Below the pieces are notes generated by a model. It made no database searches. It was not told the DNA's origin and saw only the letters and a list, made by a program, of their open reading frames with translations. 64,000 bases of DNA from the NCBI GenBank assembly GCA_965222605.1, contig OZ244960.1, positions 3,520,001-3,584,000 on the forward strand, written 5' to 3'. The stretch comes from Candidatus Latescibacterota bacterium (GTDB taxonomy: Bacteria; Latescibacterota; UBA2968). How positions within the stretch are numbered: position 1 is the stretch's first letter; each line of letters begins with the position of its first letter. Shown one piece after another: positions 8,932-34,179 of this stretch. The translations under genes were made by a program, and so were the position numbers.

Positions 8932-9744
8932 ATGAGGTGCTTTTGGTGCATTTTGCTTGCGTTTTGTATCCTGAGTTGTGGTGATAAAGGTACTGGACCA
9001 GAAATAGAACCAGAGCCAGAACCCATCCCCAAACCTCTGACAAGTGACCTGATCATTGACCTGCCGGGCGGGGTAAGAATGGCCTTTATATGGGTAGAAC
9101 CGGGCACGCTTAGAGCGGAAATGCCAATTAGAAATCCATCGACAGGGAAAATTAGACACCATATTCGTATAATGGAAATCCCCAAAGGCTTTTATCTTGG
9201 GAAGTATGAACTCACGCAGCAACAGTGGGAGCAAGTGATGCACACCTTACCCTGGCCCCAAAGAGAGGAGACCGGTTTTACGGAACCGGTTTATCCTGCC
9301 TATAATATTTCTTGGGTTGATGCACAAGAGTTCGCGAAAAAGCTGACCGAACTTCAAAATGACAGCCTATACCGATTACCAACCTCCATGGAATGGGAAT
9401 ATGCCAGTCGAGCCGGTGCAAAAACAAACTGGTTCTTTGGTAGTAGCTCTGATTCTCTAAGTGACTACGCCTGGTGGGGCAAGAATGTGGATAGCGCGCA
9501 AATTGTGGGTACTAAGTTGCCCAATCCCTGGGGATTTTATGATATATATGGCAATGTGTGGGAGTGGACACAGAGTGGACTCGGGTCTCGAATAAATCCA
9601 ACACGTTATATAAAAGGCGGTAGTTATGATACGTCAGCGTTGGACGCGAGCTCTATAGGGTTTGTCCCTGCCGGTACTCCTGCGCGCAGTCCACAACTGG
9701 GTGTGCGAATATTGCGAGAAGGTCCAAAAGTCTCGCAGCCGTAA
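8932..9744 (+). CDS. FGE-sulfatase (SUMF1-like) domain lipoprotein
   Basis: Lipobox ILSC; FYLGKYELTQQQW, YRLPTSMEWEYASRAG, PNPWGFYDIYGNVWEW, KGGSY. Confidence 0.88.
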   Translation: MRCFWCILLAFCILSCGDKGTGPEIEPEPEPIPKPLTSDLIIDLPGGVRMAFIWVEPGTLRAEMPIRNPSTGKIRHHIRIMEIPKGFYLGKYELTQQQWEQVMHTLPWPQREETGFTEPVYPAYNISWVDAQEFAKKLTELQNDSLYRLPTSMEWEYASRAGAKTNWFFGSSSDSLSDYAWWGKNVDSAQIVGTKLPNPWGFYDIYGNVWEWTQSGLGSRINPTRYIKGGSYDTSALDASSIGFVPAGTPARSPQLGVRILREGPKVSQP

Positions 9745-9771
9745 AAAAGGCATCGAAAGAACAATCATTAT

Positions 9772-9828
9772 TTATCACTTTGTTTTTCAAGCACTTGAGC
9801 GTCTTTAAGTGTTTTTTGAAACACAAAC
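9772..9828 (+). repeat. Near-identical copy of the 7891-7948 segment (IHF-like site plus CACTTGA hairpin and T-tract)
   Basis: ttatcactttgtttttcaagcacttgagcgtctttaagtgtttttt versus ttatctctttgtttttcaagcacttgagcgtcttcaagtgtttttt. Confidence 0.85.
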
Positions 9829-9849
9829 CTTTGTATAAAGGAGAATAGA

Positions 9850-12800
9850 ATGCGTTGTAACAGACCGAAACCTATTTTTGGGATGTTTCATCTTTTGTGC
9901 GGAGTACTTATAGTCAGTGTGGTTCTTGGGATAAATGCGATTTCTTCTATTGAAGCGGTGACACAGATCGGTGCAGGAGATCGAATCTTTTTTCGCGGAG
10001 ATCAGTGGGCAACAAATCGCACCGCATCGCAGACTGGATTTGAGGTGATCCGTATATCGAGTGACAGATTAGTATCTGACATGAAATATATTAGAAACAC
10101 TCTCAATCTCAAACTGATGGTTGGATTAGGTTATGATGTCGTTCCGAGAGAAAAACCCTGGCCTGGCGATACGATGGATGAGAAATTATCCATATTTCGA
10201 GACAAGTTGGCAAATTGGCTCGGTACGCACAGTCTTGATATATCTGCCTTCCATTTTAATCTCGAATATGCGGAGAAGTTTTATACAGAAAGGCATCCCG
10301 ATAGTACCAGGCGGGTTGATGCATTGACAGATACCATGACATTAATCATAAAAAATTATCAGCGCACAATCCGTGAAGTATGCGATTCATTGACAGCAGA
10401 CGGCCATGCAATCGGTTCATACCCAAAACTTTGGGTTTTCGGTGCAAAAGGAACTGGTTATAGGACTTATGAAGAGTTTGGATGCGATTGGAATGCTTTG
10501 ACATCAGACCCTTATGCGATTGATGTCCCCACAATCGGGGTGGGCACCTCAACAGTCTCTGTAGTCCCAAACGAAGTCAATCCAACACCTGGAGTCATGA
10601 AGTGGATCCCAAATCTTGCGGATCTCAAGATTTGGGGAAGTGCAGAGCATATTAGAGATCTCAAAAACCTTACAAATGGAAAACCCGTTGTCATCCAATA
10701 CCACATCGATGGCAGCCAACTACATCGAAATTTGTACCACCTTTACTGGAACGATTTTCGAGAATTGGCGAGGCATTTCAAAGCGGTGAGCGAAGAAGGA
10801 ACATCACATTTTGGCGGCAATTATCCCGTTGGATATTATCAGCCATTTTATCGTGCAAAGATTCTCGACTCTGAAGGGATAGAACGTGAAGTACACTTCT
10901 CTCTGGATGAATCTGGTGACCCTCCCTCGGGTCCCATTCCCTGGGAGGATGGGCAGAAATATCCCGCACGTTTATGGGAAACAGGCGAGGAAGGGGATTG
11001 GGGATATGATGCTACGATGAATAAGCCCAATAAGTGGGAGCGTGAGTTTATTGCCAATATTCTGTCTGCAACTGGCACTCCCTTAACAGGACACACTGTA
11101 CCAGCAACCACACGCTGGAGTGGCGAGATTTATCTCATTGGCGATGTAGTCATTCCCAGTGGTGTGACTGTGACCATTGGGGAAGGGACGGTGATTAACT
11201 TTCGCCCGGGTACGGATGTTTACGAGTCGGGTTTGGACACAAATATCTCTGAAATTGTTATTCAGAATGGTGGCACTTTGATTGCTGATGGCTCTATCCA
11301 GAATCCCATTATTTTTCAGTCATCATTCAGGGCTGATGGCACTGATCCCAGCGGTGATGGTTGGGCGGGCATCAGGGTCGTAAATGGCGATACCTTGGAC
11401 ATCCTTTATAACCCCAGCAAAGACGATTGGGGTGGCATTCGCAACGAGGGCGGCACATTGACCCTCCAAAATTGTGTTATTAGCGATGCCGAAGTGGGTG
11501 TTGAAGTGACTTCTTATCAAGGCAAGACAACTATTTTTGAAACAGATTTGTCTGCAAATCACTTTGGTATGAAAGTACACGAAGGTGCCAGTGCAACTCA
11601 GTTAGAACTGATAAATATTGGTCTGTATCGCAATATGAAGGGTGTGAATGCATTTCTGTATGGGCCGGGTCATGTAGAAATGCGTAATGCCACTATTGCA
11701 GATAATTTACAAGGGTCAGGATTTATCGCCGCGGATGGAGATAATCTCTCCGTGAAGTTTAAAAACACCATTGTCGCTTTTAATACTGTGGGGATTTACA
11801 CAGCGGGTACAAACCTTAGCTCCCCAACCTTAACACTCCAATATTGCGATGTGTTTGGAGCACCGCCATCGGGGCTGATTTTCAGGGTGTATATACCGCC
11901 ATGCCAACCACCAGTGGGAATATCGGCAATGTTTCTTTTGATCCAGAATTTGTCGCTCGTGCATCCGAGACGTCCGAAGAGTACGATTATCACCTGCGGG
12001 TAACTTCACCTTTAATTGATACGGGTGATCCAAGCATGACAGAGGCTGATAATTCAACAATCAACATGGGCAGATATGGTGGGACTTCGGAATATACGTC
12101 TGTGCCTGGAAGTAACAATGGTGGTAACAGTGGTGGTAACAGTGGTGATAACAGTGGTGATAACAGTGGTGGTAACAGTGGTGGTAACAGTGGTGATAAC
12201 AGTGGTGGCAGTAACTCGGTGCCCGTATTCGAGGATTTCGAGGATGGTCAAGCACAGGGTTGGACTGCTTCGGCAGGCACATGGAGTATCAAGAGCGTGG
12301 ATGGCAGTAACCGATACGTGATGGCAAGTAGCACTGAGAGTATCAATCGCGCTTATAAGAATGTGTCAGGCTGGTCGGGCGGATATGTCATTGAAGCGAG
12401 AATGAAGATCAGGGCTGCCGAAGGCAAGGTGATATTTTCCCAGGCGAATCAGAATGAGAGCTATCGCCTGGATGTGATGACATCGAGCAATAATTTTCGG
12501 CTGGTAATCAACGATGCCCTGCACAATCACTACATGACCCTGAACACAAATACGTGGTATGATGTGAAGGTCGAAGTGACTTCATCGCATGTGAAGGCCT
12601 GGCTGAATGGCTCTCTTAAACACACCGTGAATGTCAGTGGTGCGCCAGATGGGTATATTGGTGTGGGATCATTCGGAAGTACAGGTTTGGTCGATCATGT
12701 TTATGTCGATGATGTAAGAGTCACAAGTGCGGGGAGTGGTGATAATAGTGGTGGTAATAATAGTGGTGGTGATAATAGTGGTGGTGGTAATGGTGGAGAC

Positions 12801-28659: not shown

Positions 28660-30045
28660 TTATTGTTGGGTTAACCAGGGGTCGTCGTTTTTTTTCAGCC
28701 AGTTGTTCATTTCTTTCCCAAGTTCTGCGACAAGGCCGGGGTGATCGCCAGCGATGTTTTGTAGCTGATAGGGATCTGAGACATTATCGTGGAGGATTAT
28801 TTCTTCGCCTTCGCGCGTTCTCATGACGACATAAGTGTGTCGGTGTGTACGCACGCCGCGCGATCCGCCAGCGGGGTTGTTGGGGTTTACGTTGAGATAG
28901 AGCGCCGAGGTCGGGCGTGTGTTTTCTTTACCCAGGAGGATGTCGGAATAATCCGTTCCCTGGACGCTGTCGGGGACCTGTCCTACGCCCATGAGATTGA
29001 GCAATGTGGGCATTAAATCCGGCGTGCCGATTAACAGGTTATCTGTGCCGGGTGTGATTTTTCCGGGCCAGCGGATGATGAATGGTACAGCAAATGATTC
29101 TTCATAGTGTACGGTTTTGCCCATGAGGCCGTGGCTGCCCATCATTTCACCGTGGTCAGAGGTGAAGACTACGATGGTATTTTCTTCAAGACCCTCGGTT
29201 TTCAAACAGTCCAGTATGCGTCCGAAGTTTTCATCGACGCCGGTTACCATGGCGAAATAGTGTTTCGCGTTTTCGCGGGCGCTGTCGCCGCGTGTATCTG
29301 CGGGTACGTTGGGGCGCGTCAAGAGGTCTTCATGGGTGGCATCGCCGTATCGGGCGACGTATTCTTCTGGTACTTGTTTGAATGGCATGTGCGGTGGGTT
29401 GTGGGATATGACGAGTGAGAATGGTTTTTCGGGGTCCCGGTATTTGTCACCTTCATTGCGGATGTAGTTTATTGCGATGTCGGTTTCGTGTTTGGTGGAC
29501 CATTCCCGCGGGTCGATGCGTTTGTCAATGGGGTCATTGCCGGTCCAATAATGGGGATTGAAATGCCAATCGCAACAGCCGTAGGAATACCAGAAGTCAT
29601 ATCCGTGTCTGCGCGGTCCCGGCGGGGTATATGAATCCCAGATGACGCCATTTCCTCTGGGTCCTTCTGTGTATTGATATTGCTCATTGGGAGGATCGAG
29701 GTGTAGTTTGCCCAGGTATGCCTGATTGTAGCTAGCTTTGTGCAATACGTCTGAGAAGCACTGTGCGTTTTCCCGCAGGTAATTTTTGTATTGTACGGTC
29801 GTGGAATTGACGTTGCCGAGTACGCCGTTGGCGTGGGGATATTGTCCGGTGAATAGCATTGCCCGATATGGGCTGCATACGGGTCTGTTGCTTACGGCGT
29901 CGGTCAATACGAGGCTTTCGGACGCAAACCGGTCAATATTGGGGGTTATTACGGGGTCTTCGTTCATGAATCCCATGGCTTGTTTGCGATATTCATCGGG
30001 GAATACGAATACGAGGTTGGGATGATCAGGCATCTTTGTCTCCAT
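28660..30045 (-). CDS. Sulfatase (Cys-type); start 30045 or 30033
   Basis: CSPYRAMLFTG, GKLHL, SDHGE. Confidence 0.9.
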   Translation of the reverse strand: METKMPDHPNLVFVFPDEYRKQAMGFMNEDPVITPNIDRFASESLVLTDAVSNRPVCSPYRAMLFTGQYPHANGVLGNVNSTTVQYKNYLRENAQCFSDVLHKASYNQAYLGKLHLDPPNEQYQYTEGPRGNGVIWDSYTPPGPRRHGYDFWYSYGCCDWHFNPHYWTGNDPIDKRIDPREWSTKHETDIAINYIRNEGDKYRDPEKPFSLVISHNPPHMPFKQVPEEYVARYGDATHEDLLTRPNVPADTRGDSARENAKHYFAMVTGVDENFGRILDCLKTEGLEENTIVVFTSDHGEMMGSHGLMGKTVHYEESFAVPFIIRWPGKITPGTDNLLIGTPDLMPTLLNLMGVGQVPDSVQGTDYSDILLGKENTRPTSALYLNVNPNNPAGGSRGVRTHRHTYVVMRTREGEEIILHDNVSDPYQLQNIAGDHPGLVAELGKEMNNWLKKNDDPWLTQQ

Positions 30046-30137
30046 TTTAAATGCACGGGAACACACCGCCATAAATTGTATCAATAGTCGCTGCTGTCAA
30101 GGATTATACATTGAGGGTGAGGGTGCTCTGTATTTCT

Positions 30138-31265
30138 TTATTTGATCCCTACGACCCGATCGTAAATCGCCTCTAATTTTTTACTCTGTTTTTCCAGATT
30201 GTGTTGATTTTCGACGTGGGTACGACCAGCGCGGCCAAATTGTTCGGGGGTACTGAGCAGGGTGTCCAATCCCGCTGCGAGGCCCGCTATATCTCGTTCA
30301 GGAAATAATAGGCCGCATGTTTTGTCGATTACGACTTCGGGGATGTCGGCGTGTAGGGACGATACGATGGGGACGCCCATTGCCATGGCTTCGATTAGTG
30401 CGACGGGGGCGCCGCCTTCTGTGTCGCCGTCTGATGCTGTGACGCTGGGATAGAGGAGGATTGTTGCGCGTTTTAGTTCTTCAAGTGCTGCGGGATGGGG
30501 GAGCAGTCCGAGCATTTTTACGCGGTTTTCAAGGCGGAGATTTCGTATTTCGGCTTGTAGTTGCGGGCGCAAAGGCCCGTCACCTATCATCCGCAGTTGG
30601 GCGTCCGGGTATTTTTCCGCTATTTTTACAAATGCCTGGATTGCGTATTTCAATCCCTTTTTTTCACGAAATACAGCATAAGTCAATACGATGGGTTGTT
30701 TGGGTGTGTGGTCTGTTCTGAAGGGTATTTTGTCGAGATCTACGCCCAGGTGTTGTACGTTTACCCGATTGGCCGGGCATCCCAGTGCAATGAGTTGTTC
30801 GCCCATGAAGGGACCTTCGACGAGGAAGAGATCGCCTTCGGCAAAGAGGCGTTTGTATCGTTTTTGCCATTTTTTTTGTCGGGATAGTGCCGATACGTCC
30901 AGGCCGTAAAAGGTGGTGATCATGGGGATGTCTGCGCGCTGTTTTGCGGATAGACACCGGTATCCTTCTTGCCCAAAGTGCGCGTGGATGAGGGCGGCGT
31001 TGTGTTCGCGGAGCCAGTTTTCATAGCTGGCGTACGTGCCGCGTATTTTGCGAATGAGGCGCAGGGTTGTTCTGCGAGCAGGCGATATATCTTCGGCTGA
31101 TAAGACGGGTTCAATGGGAAACTGGTCCAGGTTCTGGCGCGTTTGTGTGAGGACGATGGGACGATATCGTTTTAACGCGCGAATCTGGTCGTATATCCAG
31201 GTGGCTGTTGCTGGCAAGAAGGGGTTGGCACTGTGCGCGACGACAGGTTCCATGCGATTTCTCAT
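30138..31265 (-). CDS. GT4 family glycosyltransferase (WcaL-like)
   Basis: IHAHFG, EKKG, GDTEGGAPVALIEAMAMG. Confidence 0.9.
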   Translation of the reverse strand: MRNRMEPVVAHSANPFLPATATWIYDQIRALKRYRPIVLTQTRQNLDQFPIEPVLSAEDISPARRTTLRLIRKIRGTYASYENWLREHNAALIHAHFGQEGYRCLSAKQRADIPMITTFYGLDVSALSRQKKWQKRYKRLFAEGDLFLVEGPFMGEQLIALGCPANRVNVQHLGVDLDKIPFRTDHTPKQPIVLTYAVFREKKGLKYAIQAFVKIAEKYPDAQLRMIGDGPLRPQLQAEIRNLRLENRVKMLGLLPHPAALEELKRATILLYPSVTASDGDTEGGAPVALIEAMAMGVPIVSSLHADIPEVVIDKTCGLLFPERDIAGLAAGLDTLLSTPEQFGRAGRTHVENQHNLEKQSKKLEAIYDRVVGIK

Positions 31266-31269
31266 AAAG

Positions 31270-31300
31270 AAACCCGTTGATACGCTCCATCAACGGGTTT
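31270..31300 (-). terminator. 12-bp perfect hairpin with U-tract on the minus strand
   Basis: AAACCCGTTGAT-N7-ATCAACGGGTTT. Confidence 0.7.
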
Positions 31301-31509
31301 GTAAATTCTGGCTTAATTCCACGGGGGCGCGGTCAGGTGTGGAAAAAAGCAATTTTTTTGCCTGTCGTCAACCTATCTCCATCTTGGTCCTGTTATCCAT
31401 GCAACAAATGAGTATCGACTTCCTTCACCCTGAACCGGTGCGGCGTGGTGGCATTACCATCGACGAGCAGACGTTTCAATACCTCAGTAGTCGAGTAGTC
31501 TTTCCTGAT

Positions 31510-31764
31510 CTAAAATTTTGCAGGCGTTCTCTCACGCACCATCAGCACTTGATCAGCACGTAGCGATTTAATCGCGGAAATGGGCACTGTGACCACAGAT
31601 ACGGATTCGCCAATGGCATTAAAAATCTCTAAAATTGCCCCTTCTTCTCCACCCGTAGGATGTGGTACATAATCGACCACGACAGCAACATCACCCTGTT
31701 TTAAATTTTCTTCGGGTATGTTGCGCGTTATTGCCACTTCCTCATATAATTTTGGTTTTGTCAT
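31510..31764 (-). CDS. DUF4926 domain protein
   Basis: LYEEVAITRNIPEENLKQGDVAVVVD...EEGAILEIFNAIGE. Confidence 0.85.
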   Translation of the reverse strand: MTKPKLYEEVAITRNIPEENLKQGDVAVVVDYVPHPTGGEEGAILEIFNAIGESVSVVTVPISAIKSLRADQVLMVRERTPAKF

Positions 31765-32090
31765 GATTCATCCTTGTCTGGTTTTAGGGTTACAAACCTG
31801 AACTTCCCATCTATAGCACGAACAATCCAGATTGTTACAACAGATAGTATTCCACTCGGCCCCACCAATTCACCACTTACCCGATAGAATATCCCATATC
31901 TGTTTTCTCTTTCTTGCACGACGTCATTCCGGGCAATTAAATCTCGGATGGCCTGTTCAAGAACAGCAGGATTTTCTGTTGTGAATCCTGCTTGTCCCAG
32001 AAATTTTGATTTATCATTACGCACCCGCGGAATAAGTAAATACCTGGTCAACTTTTCTGACGGAATAACAACGTCTGATGGATTTATCAT
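31761..32090 (-). CDS. DUF6883 domain protein (putative nuclease-type toxin)
   Basis: IPSEKLTRYLL...KSKFL...GF...YG...VTIWI...RFVTLKP; ATGA-coupled to DUF4926. Confidence 0.8.
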   Translation of the reverse strand: MINPSDVVIPSEKLTRYLLIPRVRNDKSKFLGQAGFTTENPAVLEQAIRDLIARNDVVQERENRYGIFYRVSGELVGPSGILSVVTIWIVRAIDGKFRFVTLKPDKDES

Positions 32091-32228
32091 ACTTATATCT
32101 CAGTCCGCCTTTCATCTTGGTCGGTTTCAATACCCCAGTAGTCGGGTAGTCCTTCCTGATCAGAACTACATGGATGCTGCTGTCTGAGAGGGCGATTCGC
32201 TACTCTTAGTTAGATACTCCTGTACCAT

Positions 32229-32429
32229 TCAGGGCAATGCTTCAACGCGTTCCACTTCCTCTGTCAAAATTTGATTCACCACTTCGCCCAAATCTTTGCC
32301 TCTTTTTTTCGCGATCTGTTCAAGCCGGTGCTGGAGTTTCGCATTGAGGTAAATTGGCAGCCGGATTGCAGCTCCCTTACGATAAAATTTTCCTCTTTCG
32401 GCTCTGGAAAAATCATATTCCGGTTTCAT
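32229..32429 (-). CDS. BrnA/CopG-like antitoxin (orphan)
   Basis: MKPEYDFSRAERGKF...IYL, RHH-like C-terminus; RBS GGAG; no toxin ORF upstream. Confidence 0.75.
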   Translation of the reverse strand: MKPEYDFSRAERGKFYRKGAAIRLPIYLNAKLQHRLEQIAKKRGKDLGEVVNQILTEEVERVEALP

Positions 32430-32656
32430 TGACTATCTCCGTTACATCCGTCAACTATAATTCAATCGCGAAAAATGAAATACTTGACACTTTGCAATCA
32501 CATCCTATAATAGCAATAAATAGTGTAAGCACAATGCGAAAAATCGAATCGCGGAATGATTTCTCGCACCCGTGCTGTGATTGCTCTTGTATTTATTTTT
32601 CACTGCCTCGCTCTCTTTTCCGTTACGGGGAGAGGCTGGGGGAGGAATGCCTTTTA

Positions 32657-32686
32657 TCTGTGTTTATCTGTGTCCATCTGTGGTTG
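32657..32686. repeat. ATCTGTG tandem repeat (reverse complement of the 6341 repeat family)
   Basis: atctgtgttt-atctgtgtcc-atctgtggtt. Confidence 0.7.
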
Positions 32687-32706
32687 CTTTTCATAATGGA
32701 GTTTTC

Positions 32707-34179
32707 ATGGCATCGACGACCAATTATCTCGCTTATGATTTGGGTGCGTCCAGTGGCCGGGCTGTTTTGGGGCGTTTTGATGGCGCGCGTCTCGATATTG
32801 AAGAGATTCACCGTTTTCCCAATCAGGGGATACCCATCGGCAATCATTATTATTGGGATGCGCTGCGGCTGTTTGACGAGATGTGTACGGGGTTGCGTCT
32901 CGCGGTTCGGTCTGGGGAACCGCTCAATGGCATGGGTTGTGATACGTGGGGGGTCGATTATGGCTTGCTCGATGCGCAGGACAATTTGCTCGGCAATCCC
33001 TATTGTTACCGCGATGCACGCACACAGGGGATGCTGGACATCGCGTTTGAGCGCGTTTCTCGCGAGGAGATATTTGAGCATACGGGTATTCAGTTTATGG
33101 AACTCAATACGCTCTATCAGTTGCTCGCGCAGCGTCTCGCGCGATCTCCTCAGCTCGATATCGCGCGTACGTTTCTCACGATGCCCGATTTGTTCAATTT
33201 CTGGTTTACGGGTATGAAGGTGTGTGAATATTCCAATGCCACTACCACGCAGTTCTACAATCCGCGCGAAAATGCCTGGGCAAAAGCGATGCTCAATGCG
33301 CTCGATATTCCCACTGATATGCTTCCGGATGTGGTGTCGCCAGGTACGGTGCTCGGTCCTGTTCGCAAGAGCATTGCGGATGAGATGGGTATTGCACCTG
33401 TTGACGTGATTGCACCGGCTTGTCACGATACGGGGTCGGCGGTTGCGGCTGTGCCCCTTTCTTCGCCCGATGCGGTTTATATCAGTTGTGGCACATGGGC
33501 GTTGATGGGTGCAGAACTGCCCGGACCCGCGATTAACAAAAGCGCGCTCGCGCACAATTTTACCAATGAGGGCGGTGTTGATAATACGATTCGGTTTCTG
33601 AAAAATATTTCGGGTCTGTGGATTGTGCAGGAATGCCGCCGCGTGTGGGCATTGGCGGGGAAAGAGTATTCGTGGGAAGAGTTGATGGGATTGGCGATGG
33701 CGTCCGATAGGCTCGTGTCGTTTATCGATCCCGATCACGCCGATTTTGGTACGCCCGGAGATATGCCGTCCCGTATTCGCGATTTTTGCAGGCGCACCGG
33801 TCAACTGCTACCCGATAGCGAAGGGGATATTATTCGCACGGCACTGGAGAGTCTGGCTCTCAAATGTCGCTATGTTCTGGGTCAGCTCGAAGACGCATTG
33901 GGCAAGACGCTCGGCGATATTCACATTGTGGGTGGGGGCATACACAATACGCTTTTGTGCCAATTTATCGCTTCTGCGACAGGGCGCGCGGTGCTGTCAG
34001 GTCCGGCCGAAGCTACGGCAATGGGCAATCTTTTGATGCAGGCGATGGGCAAAGGGCAGATTGGCTCGCTCGATGAACTGCGCGCTATTGTTCGCGCTTC
34101 TACTGCGATTAAAACATACATCCCGACGGATACGGACGCCTGGGACGAGGCGTTTGAAAAATTTCAACAAATAATATGA
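32707..34179 (+). CDS. rhaB: Rhamnulokinase (FGGY carbohydrate kinase)
   Basis: LAYDLGASSGR, DTWGVDY, HDTGSAV, FTNEGG, RFLKNISGLW. Confidence 0.9.
   Translation: MASTTNYLAYDLGASSGRAVLGRFDGARLDIEEIHRFPNQGIPIGNHYYWDALRLFDEMCTGLRLAVRSGEPLNGMGCDTWGVDYGLLDAQDNLLGNPYCYRDARTQGMLDIAFERVSREEIFEHTGIQFMELNTLYQLLAQRLARSPQLDIARTFLTMPDLFNFWFTGMKVCEYSNATTTQFYNPRENAWAKAMLNALDIPTDMLPDVVSPGTVLGPVRKSIADEMGIAPVDVIAPACHDTGSAVAAVPLSSPDAVYISCGTWALMGAELPGPAINKSALAHNFTNEGGVDNTIRFLKNISGLWIVQECRRVWALAGKEYSWEELMGLAMASDRLVSFIDPDHADFGTPGDMPSRIRDFCRRTGQLLPDSEGDIIRTALESLALKCRYVLGQLEDALGKTLGDIHIVGGGIHNTLLCQFIASATGRAVLSGPAEATAMGNLLMQAMGKGQIGSLDELRAIVRASTAIKTYIPTDTDAWDEAFEKFQQII

What the first reader, a model, noticed from the sequence alone, without database searches (positions are those of the whole stretch)
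31398..32429. A two-gene module occupies the spacer position between two CRISPR-type repeats in a cas-less mini-array
Seen: two 38-nt direct repeats (31473-31510, 32124-32161; 35/38 identical) read GATCAGGAARGACTACYCGACTACTGRGGTATTGAAAC on the minus strand. Two of the three differences are a compensatory pair in the stem (CUCG-ACUAC-UGAG vs CCCG-ACUAC-UGGG). Between them are 613 bp holding only a 33-nt leader with RBS and the coupled DUF6883-DUF4926 genes, whose TAG stop shares its G with the first base of the next repeat. Outside each repeat is a spacer-sized unique segment (37 nt, 31436-31472; about 32 nt, 32162-32193), then a weak repeat-like relic (31398-31435, 18/38; about 32194-32225). 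Genes and repeats are co-oriented, and a terminator follows at 31270-31300. Established: a hairpin plus an ATTGAAAC 3' end is typical of Cas6-processed class 1 repeats. Inference: either a toxin/immunity-type pair inserted into, or was acquired as, a giant spacer, or the repeats are kept so that a Cas6 encoded elsewhere cuts out the two-gene mRNA, tying TA expression to CRISPR-Cas.
Basis: partly seen in the sequence, partly recalled or inferred. Interest (0 to 1): 0.82.

Follow-up and report, generated by a model that had tools for sequence, protein, structure and literature searches.

The report
Toxin-antitoxin pair in orphaned CRISPR remnant
Two genuine CRISPR repeats bracket a small toxin-antitoxin gene pair, and together they are the last leftover of a large type III CRISPR-Cas region that related bacteria still carry at this spot, so this is an interesting relic rather than a new kind of system.

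Summary
The two repeats are real. The true unit is 37 nt, and these are the only two copies in the 6.34-Mb genome. They belong to a repeat family that forms long arrays in 10 of the 20 same-genus (Candidatus Latescibacterota) genomes searched; two more hold one or two copies. Where I examined them, the arrays lie beside type III cas genes.

In relatives, the interval between the FGGY-kinase and glycosyltransferase genes holds a 19-45 kb type III CRISPR-Cas island. Here it is 1.45 kb. I found no RAMP gene, no gene of two Cas6 families, and no relative of the islands' cas proteins. Only two type I-E systems are present.

The genes between the repeats form a conserved module:
- DUF4926 directly follows DUF6883 in 79 of 80 loci from other phyla.
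- The DUF6883 model resembles CdiA-CT RNase toxins.
- Binding of the two proteins is predicted.
- dN/dS is 0.06-0.36.

The repeat-pair-repeat unit is orthologous in one relative (93.6% identity). The junction of the DUF4926 stop codon with the repeat is shared by five species.

Coupling to Cas6 cannot operate in this genome.

An earlier scan note (e1-940339) describes a similar gene-sized "spacer" on other DNA.

The parts
32229..32429 (-). 66-aa ribbon-helix-helix ORF. It looks like a BrnA-type antitoxin with no toxin partner, and is a piece of the former island.
   Evidence: Weak Pfam RHH_1 match (0.0024). Homologues 82-95% identical lie inside the islands of G020, G015, G004, G005, G014 and G017. 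In G005 the homologue directly follows a BrnT toxin gene (PF04365, 1e-27). The only copy in G000 is this one.
32124..32160 (-). Upstream CRISPR repeat, 37 nt, matching the genus consensus at 36/37 with an intact ATTGAAAC 3' end.
32091..32123 (-). 33-nt leader between the repeat and the DUF6883 start codon. The last 15 nt (the ribosome-binding region) are shared with relatives. There is no room for a promoter of its own.
   Evidence: The only promoter-like hit on this strand overlaps the start codon.
31761..32090 (-). DUF6883 gene, 109 aa: the putative toxin, with a BECR-type RNase-like fold.
   Evidence: Pfam PF21814 at 1.5e-14. AF2 model with pLDDT 90.8. Best Foldseek match in the PDB is the CdiA-CT toxin 6cp9_A (E 3.5e-5, TM 0.68). 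dN/dS is 0.14-0.21.
31510..31764 (-). DUF4926 gene, 84 aa: the putative antitoxin. Its stop codon directly abuts the downstream repeat.
   Evidence: It follows DUF6883 in 79 of 80 loci. Predicted complex score 0.79 against a best control of 0.00. dN/dS is 0.06-0.36. The junction is shared by G000, G019, G011, G015 and G005.
31473..31509 (-). Downstream CRISPR repeat, 37 nt, matching the consensus at 33/37. Its predicted hairpin is lost.
31453..31472 (.). 20-nt junction segment with no match in the fetched loci at the E 1e-4 cut-off. It may mark a deletion scar.
   Evidence: It shows weak similarity to the flank of a terminal repeat in G019.
31327..31452 (.). Conserved region upstream of the glycosyltransferase gene.
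   Evidence: 91% identical to G005. Also matched in G014, G004, G007 and G015.
31270..31300 (-). 13-bp hairpin just upstream of the glycosyltransferase start codon. It resembles a terminator but has a weak U-tract.
   Evidence: -18.2 kcal/mol, z -4.3. It lies inside a block conserved in G019 (96% identity). The terminator scan did not call it.
30138..31265 (-). Glycosyltransferase gene: the conserved anchor on one side of the variable island.
32716..34179 (+). FGGY carbohydrate kinase gene: the conserved anchor on the other side.

Best explanation
The locus is the eroded remnant of a type III CRISPR-Cas island.

In related species of this Latescibacterota genus, the interval between the FGGY-kinase and glycosyltransferase genes holds 19-45 kb. 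This comprises type III cas genes, a Cas6, long arrays of this 37-nt repeat, and often a primase-polymerase/Cas1/Cas2 adaptation module. In this genome the interval has shrunk to 1.45 kb.

What is left is an orphan BrnA-like antitoxin gene and one repeat-gene pair-repeat unit. The pair is a self-contained type II toxin-antitoxin module. DUF6883 is a small RNase-type (BECR-fold) toxin. DUF4926 binds it and masks its conserved face.

An ancestor of several species already had this pair in a spacer slot of the array region. In this genome the two repeats are non-functional relics, because the genome has no cognate Cas6 or effector. The pair works on its own, probably transcribed by read-through from upstream.

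Inferred, not shown: the pair survived the erosion because losing a toxin-antitoxin module is counter-selected. It would then act as an anchor against deletion.
For: THE REPEAT FAMILY IS A GENUINE CRISPR FAMILY
- The 28-nt 3' core (up to 3 mismatches) occurs in 12 of 20 same-genus genomes and in 0 of 20 genomes from other genera of the family and order.
- 10 of those 12 hold 8-177 copies. In the arrays listed or fetched the period is about 76 nt.

RELATIVES' ARRAYS SIT BESIDE TYPE III GENES
- Cmr1/3/4/6 in G007, Csm3 in G014, Csx10/Csx7 in G019.
- Cas6 (PF10040) in G007 and G019.
- A primase-polymerase match (5.7e-101) beside ORFs that read as Cas1 and Cas2 in G015.

SYNTENY
- The glycosyltransferase and sulfatase orthologues follow the array in G007 and G014.
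- The kinase-to-glycosyltransferase distance is 1.45 kb in G000, against 19.2-45.1 kb in the eight genomes that carry cas genes and arrays.

ORTHOLOGY
- Window 32162-31473 matches G019 at 93.6% over 690 nt. The flanks match the two ends of G019's island.

G000 LACKS THE COGNATE CAS GENES
- No RAMPs, no PF10040 and no PF01881.
- No tblastn hit for any island Cas protein apart from a CARF-sigma54 regulator homologue elsewhere in the genome.
- Only two type I-E loci are present.

TOXIN-ANTITOXIN NATURE OF THE PAIR
- DUF4926 follows DUF6883 in 79 of 80 loci.
- The DUF6883 model has pLDDT 90.8. Its best PDB matches are the CdiA-CT toxins 6cp9 and 6cp8. The profile search also ranks 6cp9_A first, at a weak E of 0.061.
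- Predicted complex score (ipSAE) 0.79, against 0.00 for the best of 3 controls. That mark was reached by 58 of 80 solved complexes and 2 of 110 mismatched pairs. The runs share at least 91% of contacts, and the partner's pLDDT is at least 85.
- dN/dS is 0.06-0.36.
- DUF4926 also occurs alone in this genus, beside mnmA in 8 genomes and after VapBC in G015. This is typical of antitoxins.

SUPPORT FOR THE ANCHOR IDEA
- Two other genomes with no RAMP or Cas6 (PF10040) gene keep a few degenerate repeats next to antitoxin-type genes in the same interval. G005 has a PIN pair, DUF4926 and two repeats. G004 has an RHH gene and two repeats.

ASSEMBLY CHECK
- Contigs of run X1 bridge both repeats with 0 differences (records 2, 4 and 6). 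This run may come from the source sample.
Against: - No experiment shows toxicity, neutralisation or RNase activity.
- The fold match is moderate (TM 0.68, 21-23% identity). No catalytic residues were identified.
- The DUF4926 model on its own is poor (pLDDT 57.9).
- The anchor idea rests on three related genomes that are not independent. A plain neutral deletion history fits equally well.
- The order of the rearrangements could not be reconstructed. The pair lies at the kinase end in G019 but next to the glycosyltransferase in G011 and G005.
- No promoter for the pair was identified. Expression in this organism is not shown: the one RNA run held only pieces from other contexts.
- Cross-processing of these repeats by the resident Cas6e is not excluded.
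Confidence: 0.78

Rival explanations
1. Functional coupling to CRISPR-Cas. The pair is transcribed as part of the pre-crRNA. Cas6 cuts inside the two flanking repeats and releases a defined two-gene mRNA. Toxin-antitoxin expression is thereby tied to CRISPR activity, acting as an addiction or sensor device for the cas genes. In this genome only a fossil of that arrangement would remain.
For: - The pair runs in the same direction as the repeats. It has only a 33-nt leader and no promoter of its own.
- The stop codon abuts the repeat in five species.
- Other cargo between repeats is mostly co-oriented. This holds for VapBC in G015, G019 and G014, the GTPase pair in G015 and the secreted-protein genes in G012. 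The intron and the IS element are oppositely oriented.
- Relatives encode a Cas6.
Against: - G000 lacks the Cas6 and the effector, yet keeps both genes under purifying selection. Neither viability nor maintenance of the pair needs the cas genes.
- The repeats flanking the pair are degenerate even where cas genes remain. They carry 6 and 8 mismatches in G011, which keeps a Cas6 gene and ORFs that read as Cas1 and Cas2. They carry 1 and 3 mismatches in G019.
- The downstream copy in G000 no longer folds.
- Stem covariation is not significant.
- In G005 the PIN pair is oppositely oriented.
- No RNA ends are available, because the runs hold contigs only.
Confidence: 0.12
2. Oversized spacer. The adaptation machinery (Cas1-Cas2, here linked to a primase-polymerase) once integrated a 0.6-kb DNA fragment carrying the pair at a repeat and duplicated that repeat. 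The fragment persisted because it is addictive.
For: - The insert sits exactly in a spacer slot, between an intact repeat 3' end and an intact repeat 5' start.
- Homology to the copies outside CRISPR ends right at the stop codon.
- Gene-sized fragments between two repeats are reported elsewhere. One is an 899-bp plasmid-like fragment in S. solfataricus locus F (PMC4390879, passages read). Another is scan note e1-940339 (not checked by me).
Against: - No known adaptation system integrates fragments of this length.
- 18 nt of unrelated sequence lie between the repeat and the conserved ribosome-binding region. That also fits insertion into an existing spacer.
- Neither the repeat nor DUF6883 was found in viral contigs. 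A foreign source is therefore not indicated.
- Close paralogues exist in the same genus.
Confidence: 0.07
3. Chance or dispersed repeat. The 38-mers are ends of a mobile element or a non-CRISPR repeat.
For: There are only two copies in this genome, and their spacing is not array-like.
Against: - The same sequence builds arrays of 8-177 copies in relatives. The arrays I examined lie beside type III cas genes.
- No copy lies elsewhere in G000.
- No Rfam match.
Confidence: 0.01

Closest known systems
Orphan or degenerate CRISPR arrays left after loss of the cas operon
   Same: Genuine repeats remain without cognate cas genes at a site where relatives keep the whole locus. The repeats are decaying.
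   Different: Only two repeats remain, and they enclose a pair of protein-coding genes instead of a spacer. I know the route 'loss of cas genes' from a survey of arrays away from cas genes. That is recalled, and the survey was not found.
Toxin-antitoxin pairs interspersed in type III CRISPR-Cas cassettes (vapBC in Sulfolobales; PMC4390879, passages read)
   Same: Type II toxin-antitoxin modules are embedded in type III loci and have been proposed to help keep the locus in the population. In this genus VapBC, BrnTA and DUF6883/DUF4926 all lie in the island.
   Different: There the pairs lie among cas genes. Here the pair lies in a spacer slot between two repeats, and it belongs to a different toxin family (BECR-like DUF6883).
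Toxin-antitoxin cassettes in chromosomal integron arrays (PMC13108822, listing and abstract start only)
   Same: It works in a similar way: gene cassettes are bounded by direct repeats inside a repeat array, and addictive cassettes are thought to oppose loss of the array.
   Different: There are no attC sites, and no integrase was looked for. The repeats are CRISPR repeats. This is not a member of that family.
CreTA and crRNA-like mini-arrays that safeguard cas genes (10.1101/2024.10.29.618823 and 10.1101/2024.01.05.574328, abstract starts only)
   Same: A two-repeat unit is linked to a toxin in a CRISPR locus.
   Different: Those units have a spacer-sized pseudo-spacer that guides the effector to repress a toxin. 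Here the 'spacer' is 613 bp of coding DNA, the antitoxin is a protein, and the effector is absent.
CdiA-CT BECR-fold tRNase toxins with their immunity proteins (PDB 6cp9, 6cp8)
   Same: Closest solved fold to DUF6883. It is a small RNase-type toxin neutralised by a tightly bound partner.
   Different: DUF6883 is a free-standing 109-aa protein. It is not the tip of a contact-dependent delivery protein. Identity is 21-23%, and activity is untested.

Membership tests
CRISPR array of the genus's type III-associated repeat family | The repeat sequence matches repeats of bona fide arrays next to cas genes. | tested here: met
   36/37 and 33/37 matches to the consensus. Ten congeners hold 8-177 copies. 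The arrays examined lie beside Cmr, Csm or Csx genes.
CRISPR array of the genus's type III-associated repeat family | Repeats alternate with spacer-sized (about 39 nt) unique segments. | tested here: not met
   Start-to-start spacing is 651 nt, against about 76 nt in relatives. The proposed outer spacers and relics are at chance level.
CRISPR array of the genus's type III-associated repeat family | Cognate Cas6 and effector genes are present in the genome. | tested here: not met
   No PF01881, PF10040 or PF03787 match. tblastn was negative. The genome is 98.68% complete in 1 contig.
CRISPR array of the genus's type III-associated repeat family | Transcription and Cas6 cleavage 8 nt before the repeat end. 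| not testable with these tools
   Only contigs of public runs were available. These cannot show RNA ends.
Type II toxin-antitoxin module | Two small adjacent genes, co-directional and translationally coupled, conserved as a pair. | tested here: met
   The genes overlap by 4 nt. DUF4926 follows DUF6883 in 79 of 80 loci across phyla.
Type II toxin-antitoxin module | One partner has a toxin fold. | tested here: met
   Model pLDDT 90.8. Best PDB hits are CdiA-CT RNase toxins (E 3.5e-5, TM 0.68). Weaker hits are HigB2 and RelE.
Type II toxin-antitoxin module | The antitoxin binds the toxin. | tested here: inconclusive
   This is a prediction only. Score 0.79 against 0.00 for the best of 3 controls. 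The mark was reached by 58 of 80 solved and 2 of 110 mismatched pairs. Contacts agree at 91% or more, and partner pLDDT is at least 85.
Type II toxin-antitoxin module | The toxin arrests growth and the antitoxin rescues it. | not testable with these tools
   This needs expression assays.
CreTA-type crRNA-like safeguard | A spacer-sized pseudo-spacer with partial match to a toxin promoter, plus a resident cognate effector. | tested here: not met
   The insert is 613 bp and coding. The effector is absent.
Integron cassette array | attC recombination sites and an IntI integrase. | not tested
   Considered only as a functional analogy. The repeats are CRISPR repeats.

The most novel reading that the evidence does not exclude
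In this genus, CRISPR repeats double as the boundaries of gene cassettes. Toxin-antitoxin modules (DUF6883/DUF4926, VapBC) sit in spacer slots in the same orientation as the array. They are expressed from the pre-crRNA, possibly released by Cas6. They can move between repeats by repeat-repeat recombination, and they act as anchors against deletion of the array and the island. This would be an integron-like use of a CRISPR array. It would explain why the repeat-pair-repeat unit is what survives when the island erodes.
Probability: 0.18. Interest if true: 0.72.

Novelty: new variant of a known kind. Interest (0 to 1): 0.42.

Why it matters
This locus gives a clear natural example of how a CRISPR-Cas locus dies. 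A 19-45 kb type III island is reduced to 1.45 kb, and the survivors are toxin-antitoxin genes and two repeats.

It also shows that, in one bacterial genus, whole genes repeatedly occupy spacer positions between CRISPR repeats. They include toxin-antitoxin modules, and the junction is conserved across species. If the embedded modules stabilise arrays or are expressed through crRNA processing, that would add a link between addiction modules and CRISPR maintenance.

The locus also gives DUF6883/DUF4926 a testable role as an RNase toxin with its antitoxin.

Tried and rejected
SEARCHES THAT FOUND NOTHING
- Rfam scan of 30000-34000 at E up to 10: no match.
- Exact-pattern scan of genome contigs for the repeat core: none. 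Relatives were found only through the genome search with mismatches allowed.
- Two scans of metagenome contigs, one for the junction and one for the repeat core: none.
- Viral contigs: no repeat and no DUF6883 relative.
- PADLOC and NCBIfam: no family for the three small proteins.

RNA EVIDENCE: NOTHING ON EXPRESSION OR PROCESSING OF THE PAIR
- All runs were contigs.
- The single RNA-labelled run (X15) held three kinds of piece: one of a DUF4926 copy from a different context, one of an RHH gene from a different context, and ordinary repeat-spacer-repeat pieces.
- 'Joints' that appear to skip the pair carry a normal 34-40-nt spacer between the repeats. They come from other organisms' arrays, not from excision of the pair.

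STRUCTURE
- The DUF4926 single-chain model was too poor (pLDDT 57.9) to use for a fold search.

MY OWN IDEA, DROPPED
- I considered that the last 7 codons of DUF4926 derive from a split spacer (18 + 23 = 41 nt). I dropped it because the copies outside CRISPR are homologous right through to the stop codon.

LITERATURE
- The preprint 10.64898/2026.08.28.747851 mentions DUF6883 six times and DUF4926 three times in the search listing. It could not be opened. It may already describe the pair as a BECR toxin system.
- Three full-text searches found no paper describing a toxin-antitoxin pair between two repeats of an array.

OTHER
- Non-CRISPR array-like signals near the pair in other phyla (L061, L121, L122) are tandem repeats, not CRISPR.
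Full report
**1. What is in the sequence**

On the minus strand the region reads, in order:
- a 66-aa ribbon-helix-helix ORF (32429-32229);
- a repeat (32160-32124);
- a 33-nt leader;
- DUF6883 (32090-31761, 109 aa; Pfam 1.5e-14);
- DUF4926 (31764-31510, 84 aa; 5.7e-6, below Pfam's cut-off), overlapping DUF6883 by 4 nt;
- a second repeat (31509-31473), starting directly after the TAG stop codon;
- 207 nt containing a strong hairpin (31300-31270; -18.2 kcal/mol, z -4.3);
- the glycosyltransferase gene (31265-30138).

The FGGY kinase gene lies on the other side and points away.

They are the only copies in the 6.34-Mb single-contig genome.

**2. The repeats are genuine CRISPR repeats of this genus**

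The 28-nt 3' core, with up to 3 mismatches, was found in 12 of 20 same-genus genomes. It was found in none of 20 genomes from other genera of the family and order. Ten of the twelve hold 8-177 copies.

In the loci I fetched, the unit is 37 nt with a period of about 76 nt. Record titles place the genus in Candidatus Latescibacterota.

The arrays lie next to type III genes:
- Cmr1, Cmr3, Cmr4 and Cmr6 in G007, and Csm3 in G014;
- Csx10- and Csx7-type RAMPs in G019;
- a PF10040 Cas6 in G007 and G019;
- in G015, a CRISPR-associated primase-polymerase (5.7e-101) next to ORFs that read as Cas1 and Cas2.

**3. The locus is the remnant of that island**

In G007 and G014 the array is followed by the orthologues of this window's glycosyltransferase and sulfatase genes.

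The distance from kinase to glycosyltransferase varies widely across the genus:

| Genomes | Distance |
|---|---|
| G000 (this genome) | 1.45 kb |
| G007, G012, G014, G015, G017, G019, G020 (seen or read as carrying cas genes and arrays) | 19.2-45.1 kb |
| G005 (no RAMP or PF10040 Cas6 gene found, two repeats) | 20.7 kb |
| Seven genomes with no match to the repeat core in this interval | 2-11 kb |

In G011 and three others the two genes are on different contigs or are not neighbours.

Against G019, window 32162-31473 (repeat, pair, repeat) aligns at 93.6% over 690 nt. The outer flanks align to the two ends of G019's 25.6-kb island.

G000 shows no RAMP, no PF10040 and no PF01881 match. tblastn with all ORFs of at least 100 aa from the G007 and G014 islands found no Cas6 or effector. 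G000 does have two type I-E systems with their own 29-nt-type repeats and Cas6e.

**4. The outer 'spacers' and 'relics' are not supported**
- The best ungapped match of the consensus outside the two repeats is 17/37. All 500 of 500 shuffles of the interval reached at least that.
- Gapped alignment gave p = 0.14-0.98 downstream and 0.20-0.58 upstream.
- Window 31452-31327, which contains the downstream 'relic', is the conserved region upstream of the glycosyltransferase. It is 91% identical to G005 and is also matched in G014, G004, G007 and G015.
- The region around the RHH gene is 84-91% identical to pieces of several relatives' islands. In G005 the RHH homologue follows a BrnT toxin gene. 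Here it is therefore an orphan BrnA-like antitoxin gene.

**5. The stem 'compensation'**

I tested both pairing registers on 52 distinct repeat variants from the fetched loci.
Two pairs change on both sides, one cell each. That count was reached by 59 of 500 shuffles, and the covariation score by 37 of 500.
- The register that the energy model prefers shows no signal.
- In that preferred register the downstream copy here loses its hairpin: -2.9 versus -7.3 kcal/mol.

The two substitutions are real, but they are not evidence of selection.

**6. The pair is a toxin-antitoxin-type module**
- DUF4926 directly follows DUF6883 in 79 of the 80 best loci from genome contigs. These come from cyanobacteria, Chloroflexota, Acidobacteriota and others.
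- The DUF6883 model is confident (pLDDT 90.8). Its best PDB matches are the CdiA-CT toxin domains 6cp9 (E 3.5e-5, TM 0.68) and 6cp8. Weaker hits are HigB2 and RelE. From memory, 6cp9 and 6cp8 are BECR-fold tRNases.
- The sequence profile also ranks 6cp9_A first, but only at E 0.061.
- The predicted complex scores 0.79, against 0.00 for the best of 3 controls. That mark was reached by 58 of 80 solved complexes and 2 of 110 mismatched pairs. The runs share at least 91% of contacts, and the partner's pLDDT is at least 85. This supports binding but does not show it.
- The predicted interface covers invariant toxin residues K13, Y17 and D26.
- Among the island copies, dN/dS is 0.14-0.21 for DUF6883 and 0.06-0.36 for DUF4926.
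- DUF4926 also occurs alone. It sits beside mnmA in eight genomes and after VapBC in G015.

**7. The unit is older than this species**
- The DUF4926 stop codon is followed at once by the repeat in G000, G019, G011, G015 and G005. The stop is TAA in G005.
- Homology to the copies outside CRISPR runs right up to the stop codon and ends there.
- Upstream, G000 and G019 share the intact repeat and the 33-nt leader. G011 has a different 80-nt leader.
- In the more distant G001 the pair lies among type III genes (RAMP, CARF, Cas10). Degenerate repeats lie upstream of it, and its 25-repeat array is 13 kb away.
- One pair, in G009, has no repeat nearby.

**8. Genes in spacer slots recur in this genus**

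I examined 10 repeat-holding genomes (G000, G005, G007, G011, G012, G014, G015, G017, G019, G020). I did not look at the arrays of G001, G016 and G018.

Seven of the ten have gene-sized inserts between repeats:

| Insert | Genomes |
|---|---|
| DUF6883/DUF4926 pair | G000, G011, G019 |
| VapB-PIN plus DUF4926 | G015 |
| VapB-PIN | G019 |
| VapB plus a truncated PIN | G014 |
| Oppositely oriented PIN pair plus DUF4926 | G005 |
| Reverse-transcriptase-like ORF that I read as a group II intron, and a dynamin-like GTPase pair | G015 |
| DDE transposase | G019 |
| Secreted-protein paralogues | G012 |

G007, G017 and G020 have uninterrupted arrays.

Several repeats that precede inserts are degenerate at their 3' ends, as terminal repeats are. 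Some of these cases may therefore be genes lying between two neighbouring arrays rather than inside one array.

**9. Mechanism**

Shown:
- The repeats are orphaned CRISPR repeats.
- The pair is a conserved module under purifying selection.
- The cognate cas genes are absent.

Inferred:
- The pair now works as an ordinary type II toxin-antitoxin system. It is transcribed by read-through, because the leader has no room for a promoter.
- Its addictive nature helped this fragment survive.

Two other genomes fit that idea. G005 and G004 have no RAMP or PF10040 Cas6 gene, yet keep two or three degenerate repeats next to antitoxin-type genes in the same interval. These are related genomes, and a neutral deletion history is not excluded.

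The Cas6-release idea remains possible for relatives. It cannot operate here. It is also weakened by the degeneracy of the flanking repeats in G011 (6 and 8 mismatches) and G019.

**10. Comparison with what is known**
- Orphan arrays left after cas loss are known (recalled from memory).
- vapBC pairs interspersed in type III cassettes have been proposed to maintain the locus. An 899-bp plasmid fragment between two repeats has also been described in Sulfolobales (PMC4390879, passages read).
- Toxin-antitoxin cassettes in integron arrays are a functional analogy (PMC13108822, listing only).
- Three full-text searches found no description of a toxin-antitoxin pair in a spacer slot.
- A preprint on BECR RNases mentions both DUF families but could not be opened.
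- Scan note e1-940339 reports a similar gene-sized 'spacer' in a decayed type III-A array on other DNA. I did not check it.

**Verdict:** the feature is real. Most of it is explained as a relic of a known kind of system, with one uncommon and recurrent twist.

Noticed in passing
L115:3735-4843; L101:3796-5279; L121:3683-4663: In three unrelated genomes (two cyanobacteria and one Chloroflexia MAG), the DUF6883-DUF4926 pair is bracketed by long direct repeats that are not CRISPR repeats. They are 159 nt at 91% identity, 82 nt at 93% identity, and 79-nt GATCG-rich units. This hints that the pair travels as a repeat-bounded cassette.
   Followed up: partly
genus genomes, loci L021-L036: Copies of DUF4926 are nearly mutually exclusive by location. 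Five genomes have only the CRISPR-island copy. Seven have only a solo copy upstream of mnmA. G009 has the solo copy plus a full pair elsewhere. A solo chromosomal antitoxin could act as an anti-addiction gene that allows the island pair to be lost.
   Followed up: partly
L016:13664-16933 (G015); also G017, G019, G020: A CRISPR-associated primase-polymerase (NF040561, 5.7e-101) with a TPR N-terminus lies beside ORFs that read as Cas1 and Cas2 at the far end of the type III arrays.
   Followed up: partly
L016:7934-11819 (G015): Two large GTPase genes sit between repeats of the array. The second carries dynamin-family domains.
   Followed up: partly
L015:7486-8256 and 9198-9851 (G012): Two paralogous genes for proteins with signal-peptide-like N-termini each occupy a gap between repeats of one array. 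One was scanned against Pfam and matched no family.
   Followed up: no
L038:6324-8861 (G019): A type III RAMP protein (TIGR03986 family, 6.3e-83) carries an N-terminal cold-shock domain.
   Followed up: no
window 32546-32692: This 147-nt stretch has no matching segment in G019's alignment. Its first 40-45 nt recur at more than 90% identity at seven or more other places in the genome, so it may be a small dispersed repeat.
   Followed up: no
window 32484-32511 (+): A perfect sigma-70 consensus (TTGACA, 16 nt, TATAAT) faces the FGGY kinase gene. It lies back to back with the region upstream of the RHH gene.
   Followed up: no
G000:C1:2712458-2713543: A 41% identical homologue of the islands' CARF-sigma54 regulator (cas_NE0113 N-terminal domain) lies elsewhere in this genome, away from any type III genes.
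   Followed up: no
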